Position numbers and translations under genes: made by a program. This document shows positions 48,890-56,582 of a DNA stretch of 64,000 nucleotides, piece by piece. Position 1 is the first letter of the stretch. Each line of letters begins with the position of its first letter. The notes beneath the pieces were generated by a model. The model was given only the letters and a program-made list of their open reading frames with translations, ran no database searches and was not told where the DNA came from. Origin of the DNA: Ostreococcus lucimarinus (Eukaryota); assembly GCA_000092065.1 (NCBI GenBank), contig CP000581.1. One strand, 5' to 3'.

Positions 48890-50194
48890 CTAAATGAATA
48901 AAGAGTGATCTGCTTCGACGCGCTCGCGTAGTTTTGTCCCTCGCCGACACAGTCTCTCGAAGACATCGCCCGGCATGATCGCTAGTGCGGTGTTTTTCAC
49001 CAACGAACGCACCGAACATCGTCTCGGGATGCGGCCTTTGAGCACCTCGTAATCTCCAAAGTAGCAACCTCGAATAAACTTTGCGACCTCAACCTCGGAC
49101 TTTTGATCCGCTCTCTTCATGTCCAGCGCGCGCTGTCGCACCGATGCCGACATGTCCGACGCGTCAGCATTCAAGTGCGCCACTTGCGTCGGGATTGGGC
49201 GCAATATCGTCATAGGGTCGTTCGCGAACTTGAGCGCCTCTCGCGTGTGCACCCGCGGATGCCGCGGGTGCACCAGCTTGGTCGCCGCGCACGCGCCTCG
49301 AATGACGAAGTACACCGAGTACCCACCGGAACGGGAATTGCGCTGCTCGTGATCCCACGCTTGGCCTTCTTTTAGCACGTACTCGCCTTCATCGTACACC
49401 ACCTGTCGCACCAAACCTCTTTTAAATATGTCCCGCTCGCGCAACCCGCCGCCGAATACGTTCTCGCCCTGACACAACTGAATCGCCCGCATGAACTCCT
49501 CCAACGCCTCCTCGCTCGCATCTGGTCCACACTCCACTTTCGTCGACGACACGTCGCCCACGCTCTCGTCGATCACGGTACTACGACCGACGAGCACGTC
49601 TTCCTCTTCGTCCTTGGCGCTCGCGTCGCTCGCCGTCGCCTGAGAATCCGTTCGGGACGTCGAGCTCGATATCCCCGACGCGACCGACGCGACCGACCCA
49701 TCGTCATCGTCAAATTCACTGCGTTCGTCGTCGTCGTCGTCGTCGTCGTTCTCTCCGTCGCGCCATCCTCGTCCGCGTCGTCGCTCGCGCGTCCCGTCGT
49801 CGTCGCGCGGCGGCGACGAACGCGAATACGACGACGATGCGTACGACGACGAATGCGACGACGTCCAGCGCTCGCCTTCGGCGCGGTGCGACTCGGTGCG
49901 CGTCCCGTCGTCGTCGCGGGAGTCGCGCGACGTCGCGTCGTCGTCGTCGTCGTCGTCGTCGAGCTCGCCGCGCGCGCGCGATGTTTTCGCGTCGCGCCCC
50001 GGCGCGCGCACGCACGGCAGGACGACGCCGACGACGCGCAGGATGCCGGCGCGCAACTCGCGACGCGTGACCGGCATGACGCGCGCCGACGCGACGGGCG
50101 CGCGCGGTCGTGTGCGGCGCGTCGCGGCGAGGCGTTCGGCGCGGCGTCGACGCGGCGAGCGCGGAGACGAACGCGGAACGAATGTGATGTACAA
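48890..50194 (-). CDS. Cyclic-nucleotide-binding-domain protein with a poly-Asp/Ser N-terminal region; the start is uncertain
   Basis: C-terminal cNMP-binding fold: [60 protein letters not shown] (G-x-FGE-like phosphate-binding cassette and RxA). The N-terminal region is encoded by (gtc)n triplet repeats. Confidence 0.55.
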
Positions 50195-50264
50195 CGGCGA
50201 GTCGGCTCCGTCGCGCGCGCGCGCTCACGCGTCCGAACGCGAACGAGACGCGAACGCGAACGCG

Positions 50265-50993
50265 TCAGATTCGCTTGGCCATGAGAAGTTTGGTTCGTCC
50301 CCGCAAGACGTCGTACGGCGTCCGAAACGGCGCGCGAATCGTCTCGTATCCCGCCTTCTCGTACGCCCGCACCGCGCCTCGATTTTCTTCGTACACGTGC
50401 AACAGCGCGACGTTAAACCCCCACTCTCGCGCCACGCGCTCGCCCGCGCGCATCAACAGGCTCGCCAGCGCCCGTCGTCGATGCGCCTCGTCCACCGTCA
50501 TGCACGACAGGTACGCGTACTCCTCCGCGTCGTCCTCGCCTCGCGCCTCGCGCAGCGCCTCGATCGCCTCGAAATCGCGCTGTATCGACACCTCGCACGC
50601 GCCGACGATGACGTCGTCCACCGTCGCGACGAGCGGCGCGAACCGTCCCGCGCGCGCGTACGCGTACTTTTTCCGCAGCGTCCGCGCGACGTCCCACGCG
50701 AACGCCGCGCGCAGCGGTCCGTCGATCGCGTCGATCGTGCCCGCGCCGCGCCCGAGCGCGGGCTCGTAGAAACCTCTCGTCTGCAGCCGCGCGAGCGCGT
50801 CGAGCTCGTCGCGCTCGGCGAAGCGCGCGACGCGACCGCGCGCGTCGCGCAGCACCTCCCCGCTCGGGTCCTCGCCGCGCCGCGTCACCGCGCGTCGCCG
50901 CGCCGTCGTCCCGCGCCGCGCGCGTCGCGCGCGTCGCGACGCGTCGCAGCGCGCCCGCGCGCCCGCGCTCTGTCGCGCGCGCGCCAGCGCCAT
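50265..50993 (-). CDS. GNAT-family N-acetyltransferase with an Arg/Ala-rich presequence
   Basis: Acetyl-CoA-binding motif A region: [57 protein letters not shown] (the R/Q-x-x-G-x-G/A pattern). The ORF continues upstream to 51734 antisense to the ITPase gene, and those codons are rejected. The first ATG after the antisense region is at 50993. Confidence 0.65.
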
Positions 50994-51080
50994 GGCGGCA
51001 CTTCGATGCGCGCCGCGCTCTGTCGCGCGCGCGTCGCTTCGCCGCCTCGACGCCGTCGCGTCGTCGCGTCGCGCGCCGCG

Positions 51081-51641
51081 ATGGACGTCACGTTCGTCAC
51101 CTCGAACGCGCGCAAGCTCGCGGAGGCGCGCGCGATCCTCGGCGCGACGCCCGCGTTGACGCTGACGTCGCGCGCGCTCGACCTGCCCGAGCTCCAGGGC
51201 GAACCCGAGGACGTGGCGCGCGCCAAGGCGCGGCGCGCCGCGAGCGTCGTCAACGGTCCGGCGCTCGTCGAGGACACGTCGCTGTGCTACGACGCCCTCG
51301 GCGGGCTCCCGGGGGTGTACGTGAAGTGGTTCCTGGAGAAGACGGGACCGGAGGGACTCGTCGACGCGCTCGCGGCGTACGACGACAAGAGCGCCGAGGC
51401 GCTGTGCGTGCTCGCGTACGCGACGGGACCGACGGACGAAGCGCCGCGAACGTTCGTGGGGCGAACGCGAGGGCGAATCGTGCGCCCGAGAGGGTCGAGA
51501 GATTTCGGATGGGACTGCGTGTTCGAGCCGGAGGGACGCGCGGAGACGTACGCGGAGATGGACGCGGCGACGAAGAATTCCATCTCGCACAGGTATCGCG
51601 CGTTCGAGCTGTTTCGAGCGCACGTCGCGAACACGGCGTGA
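51081..51641 (+). CDS. ITPA: Inosine triphosphate pyrophosphatase (ITPA/HAM1 family)
   Basis: [118 protein letters not shown] matches Ham1 motifs. An upstream in-frame ATG at 51006 would add a 25-aa basic extension. Confidence 0.85.
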
Positions 51642-51763
51642 TGTAATGAAACGCTCGCGATGCGATGACGCGGACGACGTCGCGGACGCGTCGCGACGCG
51701 GGACGACGCGCGACGCGCGCGCGAAGCGCGGCACAACGCGCCGCGGCGGCTCGACGACGCGCC

Positions 51764-52744
51764 ATGACCGAACTCACCCCGTACGAGCTCGAGCGCGAGC
51801 GCAGAATCGCGGTGAACCGACAGCGCATGCTCGCCCTCGGTTTGCGTCGCGACGACGTGCGCATGCACGACGCGTCGCGCGCGCGCGCGTCGGGGAAAGA
51901 TTCAAAAGCGGCCGCGACAGCTCGAGCGGTGAAATCGCCGACGAAATCGCGTCGCGCGCGCGACGCGAGCGAACGCGACGACGTCCGACGGTCGTCTCGA
52001 CGGCGTGGGATCGCGCCCGAGCGCTTCGCGTCGACGAGCGACGACGCGCGCGAGAGCGATGGAGGCGAGGGGTCGAGGCGAGGCGACGACGAGACGACGG
52101 CTGAGACGCGAGCGCTGCACGAACGCGCGGCGGAGGCGTACGCGGCGAGAAACGCGGGGAAACAGGCGCGCGCGGCGATCGTGGGGACGACGTCGTATAA
52201 TCACACGCTCATGCGCGTGAAGACGATGGACGAACGAGGGCTGGAGCGAAGGATGCACGCCATCAGAAACGCGCGCGGAAAGCACTGCGTGACGAAGATG
52301 CGGCTGTTCGCTCGAGTGTTGTTTTTGGAGGGATACGAGGACTTAGCGGGGATGTGCGTGGAGGCGCTGGAGGAATTAGTGGCGGAACTGGGCGATCCGG
52401 ACGAGGAGGACATGAAGGCGGCGGCGGTGGACATCGCGCGAGAGGAGAGAGACGGAGCGAACTTTCGTTGCGACGCCGCCACCGACTTGTCGGACCCGTC
52501 CGTGTACGCGGACGTCGTTCGCATCGAAGCCAAAGCCGTGAGCGCGATGGCGGTGGATGAAAAACCTACGAGCGCCGCGCTCGCGGGAATCCCCAACGCG
52601 AATCGCTGGCAGGTCGCCGCCGCGGCGCTCGTCGGCGCCGACGGCGCGCTCAAGCCGAGCGGCAACGTCGTGTCGTTCGACAAAAACGGCGCGTACCACG
52701 TCGCGCGCGTCACGCCCGAGATGCGTAAAAAGATGAAGAGATGA
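51764..52744 (+). CDS. Hypothetical protein; basic N-terminal half and conserved-looking C-terminal half
   Basis: The ORF starts at 51665, and I prefer the ATG at 51764 (MTELTPYELERERRIAVNRQRMLALGL). The C-terminal region has normal composition: LMRVKTMDERGLERRMHAIRNARGKHCVTKMRLFARVLFLEGYEDLAGMCVEALEELV. I recognise no family. The 3' UTR contains a (gatgatgaaatga) repeat at 52738-52787. Confidence 0.45.
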   Translation: MTELTPYELERERRIAVNRQRMLALGLRRDDVRMHDASRARASGKDSKAAATARAVKSPTKSRRARDASERDDVRRSSRRRGIAPERFASTSDDARESDGGEGSRRGDDETTAETRALHERAAEAYAARNAGKQARAAIVGTTSYNHTLMRVKTMDERGLERRMHAIRNARGKHCVTKMRLFARVLFLEGYEDLAGMCVEALEELVAELGDPDEEDMKAAAVDIAREERDGANFRCDAATDLSDPSVYADVVRIEAKAVSAMAVDEKPTSAALAGIPNANRWQVAAAALVGADGALKPSGNVVSFDKNGAYHVARVTPEMRKKMKR

Positions 52745-52876
52745 TGAAATGAGATGATGAAATGAGATGATGAGATGATGATGCGTTCGAAAAAGTAGTC
52801 GGGACGCGCGTCGCCGCGCGCGATGTGACTTTGCGTCGACGCCGACGCCGACGCCGCGACGCCACACGCCGACGCG

Positions 52877-54094
52877 ATGCGCCTCCGCGCCCCCGCGCCC
52901 TCGGTCGCGCCTCGTCCCGTCCCGAGCCGCGCGCGCGAGCGACGACGCGCGCCCTCCCGCGCGCGCGCGTCGTCGACCGCGCGAGACGACGCGCTGCGCG
53001 GTTGCACCGAGTGTTCGCTCCCGAACGAGCGCGCGCGCGCGGACGCCGTCGCGCGCGCGATGGCGCTCCCCGACACCGGACACGCGCGCGCGCTCGTCGT
53101 CGGCGTCGAGACTGGAATGCTCGCGCGAGCGCTGACGACGGACGACGGCGCGCGGTGCACGGTGCTGTGCGCGGACGCGTCGACGGCGATGCTCGAGCGC
53201 GGGGCGGAGACGGTGGGCGCGCCGCGGGCGCTGCGGGCGGGCGTGGACGTGTTAGGGAACGAGAGAGGGGCGCGATTCCTGCGCGCGGACGATGCGTTGA
53301 AAGAGTTGAAGCCGTACCACGGACCGTTCGATGCGGTGGCGTTTAACGCGCACCTGTGCGATCGAGGCGAGGCGAGGCGAACGGCGCTGACGCGAGCGAC
53401 GATGGCGCTCAAGCCGGGGGGACGGATGGTGATTTCTGAGCGTAAGGCGGGCGATGCCGAGGGCTCCGACGTCGATGGTGGGTTAGATTTCGCGGAAATC
53501 GTGCGCGATTTGCCGCTGGCGCGCGTGGACGCGAGTGGGTCGTGTTCGGGGAAGGATTTGAGCGCCGCGGCGACGGCGACGGCGATACGCGCGGACGACG
53601 ATGAGAATCCCTTGGTGCTCATGGTGCCTAAATTCTACGAGTTGGCGAATAGATTCACGCTCGAGGCGCCCGTGGTCACCGGGTTCGGTCGAGGGAGTAA
53701 ACAGATGGGGGTGCCGACGGCGAACTTGGACCCGGAGACGTGCGGCGGCGAGGCGGTTTTGAGCGCGCTTCCGCTCGGCGTGTATTTCGGTTGGGCCAAA
53801 CGCGAAGGCGAGTCAAACTGGCACGAGTGCGTGCTTAACGTCGGTAAGCGACCGACGTTTGTCGACGGCGACGGGACGACGATCGAGGTGCACGTCATGG
53901 GCGCGAGCGACGCGACGCCGGAGTACGAGGACGATTTTTACGGCGAAACCATGCGCGTCGACGTGTGCGGATTCATCCGTCCCGAGTTGCGATTCGATTC
54001 CTTGCCCGAACTCGTGGCGCGCATCAAGACCGATATCGGCCTCGCGCGTAACGCGTTGGCGTCGGGCGCGCACGCGCGACCGTCGTCTTCCTAG
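52877..54094 (+). CDS. RFK: Two-domain protein: N-terminal class I SAM-methyltransferase-like fold fused to a C-terminal riboflavin kinase (flavokinase) domain
   Basis: The C-terminal 150 aa are collinear with human RFK: GFGRGSKQMGVPTANL..GVYFGWA..NVGKRPTF..EVHVM..DFYGETMRVDVCGFIRPELRFDSLPELVARIKTDI. The N-terminal region, ALVVGVETGMLARAL..TVLCADASTAMLERG..FDAVAFNAHL..LKPGGRMVISE, has the motif I / post-I / motif II-III spacing of a Rossmann MTase. Confidence 0.75.
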   Translation: MRLRAPAPSVAPRPVPSRARERRRAPSRARASSTARDDALRGCTECSLPNERARADAVARAMALPDTGHARALVVGVETGMLARALTTDDGARCTVLCADASTAMLERGAETVGAPRALRAGVDVLGNERGARFLRADDALKELKPYHGPFDAVAFNAHLCDRGEARRTALTRATMALKPGGRMVISERKAGDAEGSDVDGGLDFAEIVRDLPLARVDASGSCSGKDLSAAATATAIRADDDENPLVLMVPKFYELANRFTLEAPVVTGFGRGSKQMGVPTANLDPETCGGEAVLSALPLGVYFGWAKREGESNWHECVLNVGKRPTFVDGDGTTIEVHVMGASDATPEYEDDFYGETMRVDVCGFIRPELRFDSLPELVARIKTDIGLARNALASGAHARPSSS

Positions 54095-54321: not shown

Positions 54322-54642
54322 CTACGCCGCCGCCTTCATGACTTCTTCGATAAACTTACCGAGCTTCCCTTCCGGTCCACCCTTACCGTCGACCAAGTGC
54401 GAGCCATCCGCCTTCTTGGAGTACAAAAGCTCGTCGGTGTCCAATCGCAGAACCTCAAACGCCCCCTTTCTCCACAGCGCGCTCTCCCCGCCCGGAATCG
54501 GCTTCTCCGCGTTATTCTCAATGTACCACCCCTGTCCCTCCGGCACCGTCGCCCTCAGCACCTCCTCGACGTTGTACGTGAAATCAAACTTCCCCGGGCA
54601 CGCGTCGTTCGTCTTATCGATGAACATCTTCACCCGAGGCAT
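54322..54642 (-). CDS. Small conserved-looking protein (106 aa); function unknown
   Basis: MPRVKMFIDKTNDACPGKFDFTYNVEEVLRATVPEGQGWYIENNAEKPIPGGESALWRKGAFEVLRLDTDELLYSKKADGSHLVDGKGGPEGKLGKFIEEVMKAAA. It has balanced, non-Arg-rich composition, unlike the spurious GC-tract ORFs. I recognise no family. Confidence 0.5.
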   Translation of the reverse strand: MPRVKMFIDKTNDACPGKFDFTYNVEEVLRATVPEGQGWYIENNAEKPIPGGESALWRKGAFEVLRLDTDELLYSKKADGSHLVDGKGGPEGKLGKFIEEVMKAAA

Positions 54643-55391
54643 GTAGTTTCACTTTTCGCAGTACTCGATGTGGATCGGAATCCCCGCGCGCGTCTGCGCG
54701 CGTCGTCCGGTGCGTCCTCGCGTCGCGCGCGCGCGCGCTCTCGACGCCACCGTCGCGCCGCCGGTCGCGAACGCCTGCGCGCGCTGCGCGAGCATCGTCG
54801 TCGTCGTCGTCGTCGTCGACTGCCGTCGCCGCGCGCGCGTCGAGGGGGTGTCGGGTGTCGTCGCTTCGCGCAGGGGGCCATCGCGTGTGGGCAAACAGTG
54901 AGATGACGCGACGCGGGGCGACCGTTTCGTATGCGTACACAGTAAGAACACGCGGTCGGTCGGTCGCGGTCGGTCGGCGCGACCGCGACCGCGCCTCGAC
55001 GCGCGCGACGCCGCGCACGACGACGCGCGACCGCGACCGCGACGCGAACGTCGACGCGCGAGAGACGACCCGTCGGTCGGTCGCGAATCGCGAATCGCGC
55101 GCGCGTCGCGCGAATCGCGCGCGAGTAACGCGCGACGCTTGGATTCCACGCCCACGCGCCACGCGCGCGAATCCGACGCGCGCGAATCCGACGGCGCGTC
55201 GGCGAGGCGACGCGCGGCGCGGGCATAGGATCGCGCGGCGTCGTCGAGGGATCGCGCGCGGCGTCGGACTCGCGCGACGCGATCGCGCGACGCGCGGGAC
55301 CGGGCGACGACGAGCGGGCGCGTGCACATTCGTGCGGGTGCACATTTCCACGAGTCGTGACTCGTCGCATAAGGGACGCCGATCCGCCCGG

Positions 55392-56582
55392 ATGCGGGGC
55401 CGATTCGGCGCGGATTCGAGGGCGATGGCGATGGCGATGCGACGGGTGGAGTCCATGCCGGAGCTCGGCGAAGCGCGCGCGAGCGCGAGTCAAGAGACGG
55501 CGCGCGCGCTGAGATCGGCGAAAAATAGCGATGAGAGCACGGAGGATGCGTTCGCGATGGCGACGAGCGAGGCGGCGGGCGACGACGAAGACGCGAGGGC
55601 GGAGCGAGACGAAGCGACGAAGACGCGAGAGGCGACGGCGCGCGCGCGCGGCGACGAGACGACCGCGGACGAGCGCTGTTTTGTCGATCGAGAACCCACG
55701 GTGTTGATCGTGGATGATTGTTCGATGAATTTGCGCATCGTGAGCAGGGTGTTGGCGGCGATTTTTAGCGACGTACGCGTCGAGTTCGCGCACGACGGTC
55801 GGGAGGGTATCAAGCGGTACGAAGAGTTACGGAACGATGTGTCGTGTGATTTAGCGCTCATCATCGTGGATTATAACATGCCTTGGTGCGATGGGGTAAC
55901 GGCGTCCAAGTATGTGCGGGCGTTGGAGGAACGACACAACAGTCGCGCGCGCGAGCAATCCGACGTCGCCGCCCTTTGGCGGCGAGTGCCCATCGTGATG
56001 TACACAACCGAACTACACGTCATTCTGCCGGCTTTGGTAGATGGCACGATTGACGATCGGTTGCCAAAGGTGTGCACGCGAGAGATGTTTTCGAGATCAG
56101 TCGTGCGCCATCTCGCGCCTCGGCACGCTCGATGGGTGCTGCCAGAATGGCGCGGAATCGAGTCGAGGGCGGCTCGGTTTAGTTGCAACGACGTCGCCAA
56201 CGTGGAGTTGGAATTAGACATGCGCAGTCGCGCTTTCGTATCGTTCGACGATGCGATCCAAGGGAAGAGTGTGAAAAAGCGTCATCGTCAAAGAGACGAA
56301 GAACCGCCGGCAAACGGTGCCAAGTCGCTTCGAGGGCTCGACGGAGAGATTATCGTTTTAGGTTCGTCATCGGCGGAGGTGTCGAGCGATCACAACCGGG
56401 GGCTTCTGAAGCGTCTCTCGAGATCGTTTAATAAGTTGTTCAAGTCGAAAAGCTCCACGCCGACGGCGAGAGCGAAACTAAAAGAGGATAAACGCGCGGC
56501 GCTGTCGAAAAAATTTGAAACGACGGGTGCTTCCTCGTTGCATACATCCCTGGACAACGCTTTTCCTCGATATAGCATGTAG
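55392..56582 (+). CDS. Response-regulator receiver (REC, CheY-like) domain protein with no recognisable output domain
   Basis: TVLIVDDCSMNLRIVSRVL..VEFAHDGREGIKRY..CDLALIIVDYNMPWCDGVTASKYVRALE..PIVMYTT shows the acidic DD pocket, a phospho-acceptor Asp in the IIVDYNMP context, and T/K positions in receiver-domain order. The ORF begins at 54855 in a GC-repeat tract. The ATG at 55392 or 55425 is preferred. Confidence 0.6.
   Translation: MRGRFGADSRAMAMAMRRVESMPELGEARASASQETARALRSAKNSDESTEDAFAMATSEAAGDDEDARAERDEATKTREATARARGDETTADERCFVDREPTVLIVDDCSMNLRIVSRVLAAIFSDVRVEFAHDGREGIKRYEELRNDVSCDLALIIVDYNMPWCDGVTASKYVRALEERHNSRAREQSDVAALWRRVPIVMYTTELHVILPALVDGTIDDRLPKVCTREMFSRSVVRHLAPRHARWVLPEWRGIESRAARFSCNDVANVELELDMRSRAFVSFDDAIQGKSVKKRHRQRDEEPPANGAKSLRGLDGEIIVLGSSSAEVSSDHNRGLLKRLSRSFNKLFKSKSSTPTARAKLKEDKRAALSKKFETTGASSLHTSLDNAFPRYSM

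What the first reader, a model, noticed from the sequence alone, without database searches (positions are those of the whole stretch)
52877..54094. Riboflavin kinase fused to an N-terminal SAM-methyltransferase-like domain
The C-terminal 150 residues are an unmistakable flavokinase. The canonical eukaryotic architectures are RFK alone or, in plants, HAD-type FMN hydrolase plus RFK. Here the N-terminal ~230 residues have the glycine-rich motif I, the acidic post-I residue and the motif II/III spacing of a Rossmann-fold SAM methyltransferase (VVGVETGMLARAL...VLCADAS...FDAVAFNAHL...LKPGGRMVI). This is not the known plant fusion partner. It is either an unusual bifunctional flavin-metabolism enzyme or a nucleotide-binding domain repurposed for regulation.
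Basis: partly seen in the sequence, partly recalled or inferred. Interest (0 to 1): 0.55.

Follow-up and report, generated by a model that had tools for sequence, protein, structure and literature searches.

The report
Chloroplast-type riboflavin kinase with dead methyltransferase domain
This is a real single gene for a riboflavin kinase (the enzyme that makes the cofactor FMN) joined to a methyltransferase-shaped front domain; the fusion is old and widespread in green algae and non-seed plants, and in this alga's lineage the front domain has lost the residues its relatives conserve where methyltransferases bind their cofactor.

Summary
The 405-aa ORF at 52877-54094 (+) is real. Residues 256-395 are a eukaryote-type riboflavin kinase (RFK) with intact PTAN motif and catalytic Glu (Pfam E=1e-30).

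Residues about 36-255 have a class I methyltransferase (MTase) fold, not HAD and not FMNAT. The window's own Pfam hit is borderline. Homology is secured through chlorophyte orthologues (E~1e-15) and a Foldseek match of the AF2 model.

The fusion is not peculiar to this genome. It occurs across prasinophytes, core chlorophytes, streptophyte algae, mosses, liverworts and ferns. Seed plants show only HAD+RFK. Chlamydomonas RFK2 (Cre01.g025250), shown experimentally to be chloroplast and thylakoid-enriched, has the same architecture.

In all Mamiellophyceae-type copies, including this one, residues invariant in bacterial stand-alone relatives and in canonical algal fusions are replaced: motif I LDVGxGxG to LVVG(A/V)ETG, and SHPxG to SER. 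A CxxC motif is gained. The domain remains under purifying selection (dN/dS ~0.3, against ~0.07 for RFK).

Most likely this is a plastid-targeted RFK carrying a non-catalytic pseudo-methyltransferase module. The gene is an orthologue of an annotated family, but I found no paper describing the N-domain. Interest is moderate.

The parts
52877..54094 (+). Complete single-exon gene, 405 aa plus stop: presequence, MTase-like domain and riboflavin kinase domain
   Evidence: ORF listing. In-frame stop 48 nt upstream of the ATG, GC3 0.825. Full-length homologues at 64-99% identity, and conserved gene order in three related contigs.
52877..52981 (+). Residues 1-35: fast-evolving Arg/Ala/Pro/Ser-rich presequence, a presumed organellar transit peptide
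   Evidence: 10 Arg and 1 Glu, net charge +9. dN/dS about 1.2-1.4 and 21-31% identity to P0003 and P0010. pLDDT below 50. The Chlamydomonas orthologue is chloroplast-localised. Targeting of this protein is inferred.
52982..53080 (+). Residues 36-68: N-terminal helical segment of the MTase-like domain, carrying the lineage-specific RDDxxxGCxEC motif (C43, C46)
   Evidence: dN/dS 0.15-0.29 in the two more distant comparisons. CxxC is present in 50 of 52 Mamiellophyceae-type sequences with enough upstream sequence, and in 0 of 45 canonical fusions. Family-invariant F36 is replaced by R.
53003..53014 (+). CxxC motif (C43-T-E-C46)
53081..53446 (+). Residues 69-190: class I MTase-fold core (beta1 to beta5)
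   Evidence: Pfam Methyltransf_11/12/25 at residues 73-186. AF2 secondary structure runs beta-alpha-beta. Foldseek matches CysG, CmoA and YecO. dN/dS 0.30-0.41.
53093..53116 (+). Degenerate motif I, L73-V-V-G-V-E-T-G80 (canonical form is L-D-V-G-x-G-x-G)
   Evidence: D is present in 85 of 85 aligned stand-alone homologues and in all canonical fusions, but is V74 here. The central G, also 85 of 85, is E78 here. E is present in 57 of 57 Mamiellophyceae-type sequences.
53447..53641 (+). Residues 191-255: acidic, partly disordered remainder of the N-domain (beta6/beta7 region) and the linker to RFK
   Evidence: pLDDT below 50 at residues 193-200. Family-conserved G191, P200, D239 and Y244 are lost. 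dN/dS 0.22-0.49.
53642..54061 (+). Residues 256-395: riboflavin kinase (flavokinase) domain
   Evidence: Pfam PF01687 E=1e-30. PDB sequence matches: human RFK 6e-22, S. pombe RFK 2e-18. Foldseek to 1n06 and 1nb0 gives rmsd 2.5-2.9 A. dN/dS 0.066-0.093.
53714..53725 (+). PTAN motif (P280-T-A-N283) of the RFK nucleotide/Mg site
   Evidence: T281, A282 and N283 are invariant in 28 aligned family members. They align to the PTAN of human RFK.
53885..53887 (+). E337, aligned with the conserved Glu of the human RFK 'METH' segment (the catalytic base, from knowledge of the family)
   Evidence: Invariant in alignment A1. Pairwise alignment to 1nb0.

Best explanation
The gene encodes the Mamiellophyceae (Ostreococcus-like) orthologue of Chlamydomonas RFK2, an organelle-targeted, most likely plastid, riboflavin kinase.

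A basic presequence of about 35 residues is followed by a class I methyltransferase-fold domain and then a eukaryote-type RFK domain. The RFK domain keeps all hallmark residues. It is inferred to phosphorylate riboflavin with ATP to give FMN inside the organelle.

The N-domain descends from an ancient fusion, made before chlorophytes and streptophytes split, with a small bacterial-type SAM methyltransferase of about 205 aa. In this lineage it has lost the motif-I Asp and central Gly and the family-specific SHPxG motif. It is therefore most likely no longer a methyltransferase.

It is kept under moderate purifying selection as a structural, regulatory or localising module of the kinase. In other words it is a pseudoenzyme domain, as seen repeatedly in plant flavin enzymes.

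Shown: the architecture, the homologies, the residue replacements, the selection pattern and the phyletic spread. Inferred: RFK activity, plastid targeting of this protein, loss of SAM binding, and the role of the N-domain.
For: RFK domain:
- Pfam E=1e-30; PDB human RFK 6e-22; Foldseek rmsd 2.5-2.9 A to 1n06 and 1nb0.
- GxGRGS, PTAN and E337 are invariant in the 28 aligned family members. Among 196 retrieved proteins of 290 aa or more carrying GxGRGS, 191 also carry PTAN.
- dN/dS is about 0.07.

Same family as Chlamydomonas RFK2:
- BLASTP E=5e-42, spanning N-domain beta3 through the RFK end.
- hhalign of its N-part against the N-domain profile gives probability 99.8%, E=2e-29.
- RFK2 is chloroplast and thylakoid-enriched by Venus tagging (bioRxiv 10.1101/2022.05.31.493820).

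MTase fold.

Loss of catalytic signature. In 85-88 stand-alone homologues and 44 canonical fusions, D74, G78, H188, P189, G191, F36, N162, P200, D239 and Y244 are at least 86% conserved. All are changed in the 57 Mamiellophyceae-type sequences. G76, G80, D100, D138, D152, N157 and S187 are kept.

Domain not decaying: dN/dS is 0.30-0.41, against 1.2-1.4 for the presequence. The substitutions V74, E78, E188 and R189 are themselves fixed across the clade.

Gene integrity: gene order is conserved in three relatives.
Against: - No biochemical data exist for this protein or for any member's N-domain.
- The ribose-binding Asp (D100), the Asp after beta3 (D138) and the D152/N157 beta4 motif survive. 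Adenosine or SAM binding is therefore not excluded.
- The paired change D74 to V with G78 to E could relocate the carboxylate rather than abolish it.
- A dN/dS of 0.3 is compatible with a still-functional ligand-binding domain.
- The homologue sets were gathered by shared 5-residue words. Conservation of 'VLDVG' among them is partly ascertainment.
- Plastid targeting is transferred from Chlamydomonas and from composition only. No targeting predictor was available. A mitochondrial or dual location is possible.
I could not check whether E78 occupies the SAM pocket.
Confidence: 0.62

Rival explanations
1. It is a genuinely bifunctional enzyme. The N-domain is still an active SAM-dependent methyltransferase acting on a flavin-related or other plastid substrate, coupled to FMN synthesis.
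For: - MTase fold retained.
- D100, D138, D152 and N157 retained.
- Purifying selection on the domain.
- Core chlorophyte and Chlorokybus orthologues have a fully canonical LDVGxGxG motif and pass Pfam at 1e-15. The ancestral fusion probably was bifunctional.
Against: - The motif-I Asp and central Gly, invariant in 85 of 85 stand-alone relatives, are replaced.
- The SHPxG motif after beta5 and five other family-invariant positions are lost.
- The beta5-beta6 segment conserved in canonical members is replaced by an acidic disordered stretch.
- Independent degeneration occurs in Chlamydomonas (LVVGSGAVP), Cymbomonas, Picochlorum, Chloropicon and moss. This argues the methyltransferase activity is dispensable.
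Confidence: 0.12
2. The N-domain has been neofunctionalised into a sensor. The remodelled former SAM pocket (E78, E188/R189, R36) and the gained CxxC pair bind another ligand, such as an adenine nucleotide, a flavin or a metal. Alternatively they form a thioredoxin-controlled disulfide that switches RFK activity with light or redox state in the plastid.
For: - The replacements are not random decay. They are fixed across the 57 Mamiellophyceae-type sequences.
- CxxC is present in 50 of 52 such sequences and in 0 of 45 canonical fusions.
- The adenosine-contacting Asp residues are retained.
- dN/dS is 0.15-0.3 for residues 36-190 in the comparison with P0003.
- pTM of 0.82 for a two-domain model suggests a defined interdomain arrangement.
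Against: - This is purely sequence-based.
- The CxxC segment has only moderate model confidence (pLDDT about 62).
- No ligand or redox data exist.
- Paired Arg and Glu gains could simply be salt bridges filling an empty pocket.
Confidence: 0.2
3. It is an annotation or assembly artefact: two adjacent genes (a methyltransferase and an RFK) read through as one ORF, or the true start is the internal Met62.
For: Some metagenome gene callers report a 344-aa version starting at Met62, and other shorter fragments.
Against: - The open frame is continuous.
- The region upstream of Met62 (RDDA..GCTEC..) is conserved, with dN/dS 0.15-0.29 in the two more distant comparisons.
- The same fusion appears in more than 100 proteins. 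These include TSA, MMETSP and Trinity transcript-derived entries in other green algae, and the 390-aa Chlamydomonas protein that was cloned and expressed.
- Complete 405-aa ORFs occur on 247 contigs.
Confidence: 0.02
4. The N-domain is a diverged HAD FMN hydrolase (plant FHy/RFK type) or an FMN adenylyltransferase (bacterial RibF type).
For: - Foldseek lists C. ammoniagenes FAD synthetase with about 400 aligned columns.
- Phyre in the Chlamydomonas atlas supplement picked the same template.
Against: - Those alignments have rmsd about 20 A and TM about 0.29, so only the RFK module superposes.
- No HAD (PF00702, PF13419) or FAD_syn (PF06574) hit even at E<=10.
- Orthologues give MTase families at 1e-15.
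Confidence: 0.01

Closest known systems
Chlamydomonas reinhardtii RFK2 (Cre01.g025250, UniProt A0A2K3E6B3)
   Same: Same three-part architecture: presequence, MTase-fold N-domain, RFK. BLASTP E=5e-42 and N-domain hhalign 99.8%. It also has a degenerate motif I (LVVGSGAVP). It is chloroplast and thylakoid-enriched by fluorescent tagging.
   Different: About 35% identity over the aligned 283 columns. The degeneration of motif I is different, so probably independent. RFK2 has no CxxC motif. The atlas preprint treats RFK2 only as a riboflavin kinase; its only 'methyltransferase domain' passage concerns another protein.
Plant bifunctional AtFMN/FHy (At4g21470; Sandoval and Roje 2005, cited in PMC2972280 and PMC9678776)
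   Same: A eukaryote-type RFK domain at the C-terminus of a two-domain protein. The RFK domains are the nearest relatives outside the family (E~1e-20).
   Different: The partner domain there is a HAD-superfamily FMN hydrolase, and the enzyme is cytosolic. Here the partner is an MTase fold with a presequence. Both types coexist in Sphagnum mosses (P0238 and P0313, from two Sphagnum species).
Monofunctional eukaryotic RFK (human RFK 1nb0, S. pombe Fmn1 1n06)
   Same: Beta-barrel flavokinase fold, GxGRGS...PTAN motif and conserved Glu.
   Different: Those are single-domain proteins of about 150-160 aa.
Small stand-alone bacterial class I SAM methyltransferases of about 205 aa (e.g. P0154, P0158, P0170). 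Nearest solved relatives: CmoM (8joz, 4htf), CysG (9fcl)
   Same: They match the family N-domain profile A2 at E=1e-59 to 1e-35. The solved structures match the same profile at E~1e-12 and the window's AF2 model by Foldseek.
   Different: They keep VLDVG(S/T)GxG and SHPxG (85-88 sequences), which the window protein has lost. They sit in bacterial contigs with no flavin genes nearby. Their substrate is unknown.
Plant flavin enzymes with an inactivated fused domain (AtFADS1 pseudo-pyrophosphatase, AtRibF1/2 pseudo-RFK, PyrD/PyrR)
   Same: One half of a fused flavin-pathway protein has lost catalytic residues yet is universally retained (PMC9678776).
   Different: The domains are different. In those cases inactivity was shown biochemically. 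Here it is inferred from sequence.

Membership tests
Riboflavin kinase / flavokinase (Pfam PF01687, EC 2.7.1.26) | Significant match to the family profile above the curated threshold | tested here: met
   106.8 bits against a cut-off of 19.6, E=1.1e-30, covering profile positions 3-123 of 124.
Riboflavin kinase / flavokinase (Pfam PF01687, EC 2.7.1.26) | Gly-rich GxGRGS...PTAN nucleotide/Mg motif and the conserved catalytic Glu | tested here: met
   G269-F-G-R-G-S274, P280-T-A-N283 and E337 are present. They are invariant in 28 family members and align to human RFK.
Riboflavin kinase / flavokinase (Pfam PF01687, EC 2.7.1.26) | Six-stranded beta-barrel RFK fold | tested here: met
   The AF2 model superposes on S. 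pombe 1n06 and human 1nb0: rmsd 2.5-2.9 A, target TM 0.70-0.75, E~5e-11. This is a predicted model, not an experimental structure.
Riboflavin kinase / flavokinase (Pfam PF01687, EC 2.7.1.26) | ATP-dependent phosphorylation of riboflavin to FMN | not testable with these tools
   Requires an enzyme assay.
Class I (Rossmann-fold) SAM-dependent methyltransferase | Alternating beta-alpha-beta fold homologous to known MTases | tested here: met
   Pfam Methyltransf_11 22.6 bits against 21.2 on the N-half. Orthologue N-domains E=1e-15. Profile against PDB 7e-13. Foldseek CysG-SAH 9e-7.
Class I (Rossmann-fold) SAM-dependent methyltransferase | Motif I (D/E)-x-G-x-G-x-G SAM-binding loop | tested here: not met
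   The sequence is V74-V-G-V-E78-T-G. The Asp and the central Gly, 85 of 85 in stand-alone homologues, are replaced.
Class I (Rossmann-fold) SAM-dependent methyltransferase | Acidic residue at the end of beta2 (ribose hydroxyls) and Asp after beta3 (adenine) | tested here: met
   D100 and D138 are conserved. Their role is assigned from general knowledge of the fold.
Class I (Rossmann-fold) SAM-dependent methyltransferase | Subfamily-specific conserved residues (SHPxG after beta5, F36, N162, P200, D239, Y244), whose role in substrate or active site is assumed, not known | tested here: not met
   All are changed in the window and in the 57 Mamiellophyceae-type sequences.
Class I (Rossmann-fold) SAM-dependent methyltransferase | SAM binding and methyl transfer | not testable with these tools
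   Requires ITC or thermal shift and activity assays. Ligand co-folding was not available.
Plant FHy/RFK (HAD FMN hydrolase + RFK) | N-terminal HAD-superfamily domain | tested here: not met
   No HAD Pfam family even at E<=10. True FHy/RFK proteins in the same searches carry PF00702 and PF13419.
Prokaryotic bifunctional FAD synthetase RibF (FMNAT + RFK) | N-terminal FMN adenylyltransferase domain (PF06574) | tested here: not met
   No PF06574 hit. NCBIfam RibF models match only residues 256-396, far below their cut-offs. Foldseek superposition covers the RFK module only.
Green-lineage RFK2-type kinase (MTase-fold + RFK; Chlamydomonas RFK2) | Homology to RFK2 across both domains in the same order | tested here: met
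   The family spans chlorophytes, streptophyte algae, bryophytes and ferns.
Green-lineage RFK2-type kinase (MTase-fold + RFK; Chlamydomonas RFK2) | Chloroplast localisation | not testable with these tools
   Only indirect evidence here: a basic, acidic-poor, unconserved 35-residue presequence. Localisation was shown for Chlamydomonas only.

The most novel reading that the evidence does not exclude
In Mamiellophyceae the former SAM pocket of the fused methyltransferase domain has been rebuilt into a new ligand-, metal- or redox-sensing site. The rebuilt residues are E78, E188/R189 and R36, plus a gained C43-x-x-C46 pair, all fixed across the clade. Such a site could gate plastid FMN synthesis, for example through a thioredoxin-controlled disulfide linking flavin cofactor supply to light.

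A wider corollary follows. Orthologues with an intact motif I (Chlorella, Coccomyxa, Chlorokybus) may still catalyse an unknown methylation coupled to flavin metabolism in plastids.
Probability: 0.15. Interest if true: 0.6.

Novelty: new member of a known kind. Interest (0 to 1): 0.4.

Why it matters
FMN synthesis in plant plastids and mitochondria is attributed to 'as yet unidentified enzymes' (PMC9678776). The RFK2-type protein is the obvious plastid kinase in green algae and non-seed plants. It was not detected in seed plants, which sharpens the question of what replaced it there.

The N-domain is a clean natural series. Core chlorophytes and Chlorokybus keep an intact methyltransferase signature. 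At least four or five lineages show independent decay. Mamiellophyceae show a fixed, remodelled version. The series could show how a fused enzyme domain becomes a pseudoenzyme or a regulator. I found no paper in the searchable library that discusses this domain.

For genome annotation, the gene should be called a plastid-type riboflavin kinase with a methyltransferase-like domain, not a bifunctional methyltransferase/kinase.

Tried and rejected
- HAD/FMN-hydrolase and FMNAT identities for the N-domain: rejected.
- Gene-fusion artefact or internal start at Met62: rejected.
- afdb50 fold search, to obtain named eukaryotic structural neighbours: the library was not available.
- Genomic context of the stand-alone bacterial MTase relatives, as a clue to substrate: neighbours are unrelated to flavins (glutamate dehydrogenase, FTCD, EamA transporter, EF-G), so uninformative.
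- Chlamydomonas RFK2 interaction data: the only recorded bait is a Nudix hydrolase (Cre03.g189500). That accession occurs 214 times in the interaction table, and the RFK2 pair has replicability 1. It is too promiscuous to interpret.
- Literature searches for a described methyltransferase-RFK fusion: nothing found.
A window GC of 0.603, chromosome-size contigs of about 1.13 Mb, 43% identity to Micromonas commoda and a ladder of relatives at 91, 74 and 64% identity fit an Ostreococcus-like Mamiellophyceae. This is inference only.
- Not used: the search of protein representatives (it returns no names, so it would add little) and the second structure job (coordinates cannot be inspected).
Full report
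**1. Observation**

The window contains an uninterrupted ORF at 52877..54094 on the + strand, 405 codons, starting with ATG. An in-frame stop lies 48 nt upstream, and no other ATG precedes the conserved part of the protein. GC3 in this frame is 0.825, against 0.603 for the whole window.

The long antisense ORF at 52201..53622 is the usual by-product of high GC.

**2. C-terminal domain**

- Pfam Flavokinase PF01687 matches residues 258-393 with E=1.1e-30, 106.8 bits against a cut-off of 19.6.
- Against PDB sequences the best matches are human RFK 1nb0 (E=6e-22) and S. pombe RFK 1n05 (2e-18). Bacterial RibF modules are far weaker, at 1e-10 to 1e-7. The domain is therefore of the eukaryotic type.
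- GFGRGS (269-274), PTAN (280-283) and E337 are present and invariant across 28 aligned family members.
- An AlphaFold2 model (mean pLDDT 80.9, pTM 0.82) superposes on 1n06 and 1nb0 with rmsd 2.5-2.9 A.
- dN/dS against three relatives is 0.066-0.093.

I take riboflavin kinase activity as very likely, although it is inferred.

**3. N-terminal domain**

On its own the window sequence gives only a borderline MTase signal. Methyltransf_11 scores 22.6 bits against 21.2 for the isolated N-half and 21.0 bits in the full protein. Methyltransf_12 and _25 are below cut-off. No HAD or FMNAT family appears even at E<=10.

Homology is nevertheless firm:
- The N-domains of orthologues hit five MTase Pfam families above cut-off, with E down to 1e-15 (Myrmecia) and 1e-11 (Micromonas).
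- A 12-sequence N-domain profile (A2) hits solved MTases: CmoM 8joz/4htf at 7e-13 and CysG 9fcs at 5e-12.
- The model has the beta-alpha-beta order of the fold. It matches CysG-SAH, CmoA and YecO by Foldseek at 1e-6 to 1e-5 with probability 1.00.

The roughly 400-column Foldseek alignments to C. ammoniagenes FAD synthetase have rmsd about 20 A and TM about 0.29. They reflect the RFK module only.

**4. The fusion is ancient and widespread**

Full-length relatives with both domains were found in many groups:
- Prasinophyte-grade and other early-branching greens: Micromonas commoda, Cymbomonas, Chloropicon, Tetraselmis.
- Core chlorophytes: Picochlorum, Nannochloris, Chlorella, Micractinium, Coccomyxa, Trebouxia, Myrmecia, Raphidocelis, Monoraphidium.
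- Streptophyte algae: Chlorokybus, a record with identifier SM000166S02449 (P0171; the source gives no organism, and I attribute it to Spirogloea from the identifier style only), and Closterium.
- Mosses: Ceratodon, Physcomitrium, Sphagnum.
- Liverworts: Marchantia, Calypogeia, Riccia.
- Ferns: Adiantum, Ceratopteris.

Seed plants appeared in the same searches only as HAD+RFK proteins matching the RFK third of the query. Several entries derive from transcriptomes (TSA GHUV01002536, MMETSP, Trinity), so the two domains sit on one mRNA in relatives.

The exact window protein is in public collections. A near-identical 405-aa form occurs on 247 contigs, the longest about 1.13 Mb. JGI names cluster members 'riboflavin kinase'.

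In three related contigs the gene order is the same as in the window: GNAT (-), Ham1/ITPase (+), unknown protein of 323-359 aa (+), this gene (+), unknown protein of 101-106 aa (-), response regulator (+).

**5. Link to a characterised protein**

The chloroplast protein atlas of Chlamydomonas (bioRxiv 10.1101/2022.05.31.493820) localised RFK2 (Cre01.g025250, 390 aa) to the chloroplast, enriched at thylakoids.

Its sequence, recovered from the supplement, aligns to the window protein from N-domain beta3 to the end of RFK (E=5e-42). Its N-part matches the N-domain profile with probability 99.8%, E=2e-29. The window gene is therefore a member of the RFK2 family.

The atlas preprint treats RFK2 only as a riboflavin kinase; its only 'methyltransferase domain' passage concerns another protein. 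No paper in the searchable library describes a methyltransferase-RFK fusion.

A JBC paper states that plastid and mitochondrial FMN synthesis in plants is due to 'as yet unidentified enzymes'. It also says that loss of one activity in fused flavin enzymes is common in plants (PMC9678776).

**6. State of the methyltransferase site**

The closest non-fused relatives are bacterial proteins of about 205 aa (E=1e-59 to 1e-35). They lie in contigs with no flavin genes nearby.

I aligned 85-88 of these, 44 canonical fused proteins and 57 Mamiellophyceae-type proteins to the N-domain HMM.

| Position (window numbering) | Stand-alone and canonical fused | Mamiellophyceae-type, including the window |
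|---|---|---|
| 74 (motif I acid) | D | V (commonest) |
| 78 (motif I central Gly) | G | E |
| 188 | H | E |
| 189 | P | R |
| 36 | F | R |
| 162 | N | D (commonest) |
| 191, 200, 239, 244 | G, P, D, Y | changed, variable |
| 76, 80 | G, G | kept |
| 100, 138, 152 | D, D, D | kept |
| 105, 157, 187 | M, N, S | kept |

Positions in the 'stand-alone and canonical fused' column are at least 86% conserved in both groups. The fold and the residues that normally hold the adenosine are therefore preserved. The methionine-side loop and the subfamily's own conserved motif (SHPxG) are gone.

A CxxC motif (GCTEC, residues 42-46) is present in 50 of 52 Mamiellophyceae-type sequences and in none of 45 canonical fusions.

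Other lineages have degenerated motif I in different ways: Chlamydomonas LVVGSGAVP, Cymbomonas MDVSFAGN, Chloropicon LLIGMGAS, moss ALVGPGSI, and Picochlorum by deletion. This indicates repeated, independent loss of the catalytic signature.

One caveat applies. The homologue sets were collected by shared short words, which favours sequences that keep 'VLDVG'. However, the motif-I consensus is also general knowledge for the fold.

**7. Selection**

Nei-Gojobori estimates from codon alignments with three relatives. For the linker and RFK, the lower figure comes from the comparison with P0003 or P0002 and the upper from P0010.

| Region (residues) | dN/dS |
|---|---|
| Presequence (1-35) | 1.2-1.4 |
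| N-terminal helix with CxxC (36-68) | 0.15-0.29 in the two informative comparisons |
| MTase core (69-190) | 0.30-0.41 |
| Linker (191-255) | 0.22-0.49 |
| RFK (256-395) | 0.066-0.093 |

The N-domain is constrained, so it is not a decaying remnant. It is four to five times more relaxed than the kinase.

The presequence is unconserved, has 10 Arg and 1 Glu, and is disordered in the model. This is what a transit peptide looks like.

**8. Interpretation**

The best-supported reading is an organelle-targeted (by orthology, plastid) riboflavin kinase. Its N-terminal methyltransferase-fold domain is a non-catalytic module in this lineage (confidence about 0.6).

Rivals:
- A still-active methyltransferase (about 0.12). 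This is kept alive by the retained adenosine-binding Asp residues and by the possibility that E78 substitutes for D74.
- A neofunctionalised ligand or redox sensor built from the remodelled pocket and the CxxC pair (about 0.2). This is really a more specific version of the main reading.
- Artefact, HAD or FMNAT readings, which the data exclude.

**9. Novelty and score**

The gene is an orthologue of an annotated and partly characterised family. The architecture is already visible in database domain calls, so it is a new member of a known kind.

What is not in the literature I could search:
- recognition that the plastid-type RFK of the green lineage carries a methyltransferase-derived domain;
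- its distribution (not detected in seed plants);
- the fixed remodelling in Mamiellophyceae.

This is moderately interesting to specialists in flavin metabolism and pseudoenzymes. Interest 0.40.

Noticed in passing
window 51665-52744 (+) and 54322-54642 (-): Two ORFs flank the kinase gene (359 aa and 106 aa). Their positions and sizes are conserved in three related contigs, but they have no Pfam family at E<=0.01. They are lineage-specific proteins of unknown function.
   Followed up: partly
window 49896-51734, both strands: The mechanical ORFs 49896..51641 (+, 581 aa) and 50265..51734 (-, 489 aa) overlap almost fully. Only the last ~190 aa of the + ORF is a Ham1/ITPase domain (E=1e-50). Only the C-terminal part (residues 356-470) of the - ORF is a GNAT acetyltransferase. 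Related contigs call them as 187-240 aa and 190-257 aa divergent neighbours. The real genes are probably much shorter than the ORFs, with a very short divergent intergenic region.
   Followed up: partly
window 52201-53622 (-): A 473-aa Ser/Ala-rich antisense ORF overlaps the kinase gene. It is probably a high-GC artefact, since the + frame has GC3 0.825 and all the homology.
   Followed up: partly
window 54855-56582 (+): A 575-aa ORF has a response-regulator receiver domain exactly at the Pfam threshold (30.2 bits against 30.2) and a long Arg-rich N-terminal part. It is syntenic in relatives.
   Followed up: no
proteins P0048, P0275, P0277: A subgroup of relatives (362-392 aa) has PF09493 precomputed alongside PF01687, with no MTase family listed. 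Separately, the motif-I tally shows other degenerate variants (VIVVGKPTADG, VILAGRPTTDG). I did not check whether these belong to the same proteins, or which organisms they come from.
   Followed up: no
loci L001-L004; proteins P0150-P0236: The closest non-fused relatives form a large family of ~205-aa bacterial SAM methyltransferases with near-invariant VLDVG(S/T)GxG and SHPxG motifs. Their substrate is unknown, and some sources label them generically as UbiE-like.
   Followed up: partly
Chlamydomonas data, bioRxiv 10.1101/2022.05.31.493820, supplement file 5: RFK2 was recovered as prey of a chloroplast-envelope Nudix hydrolase bait (Cre03.g189500, WD-score 16.4). This is curious because a Nudix enzyme is the plastid FAD pyrophosphatase in Arabidopsis. 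However, the bait's accession occurs 214 times in the table and the pair has replicability 1.
   Followed up: partly
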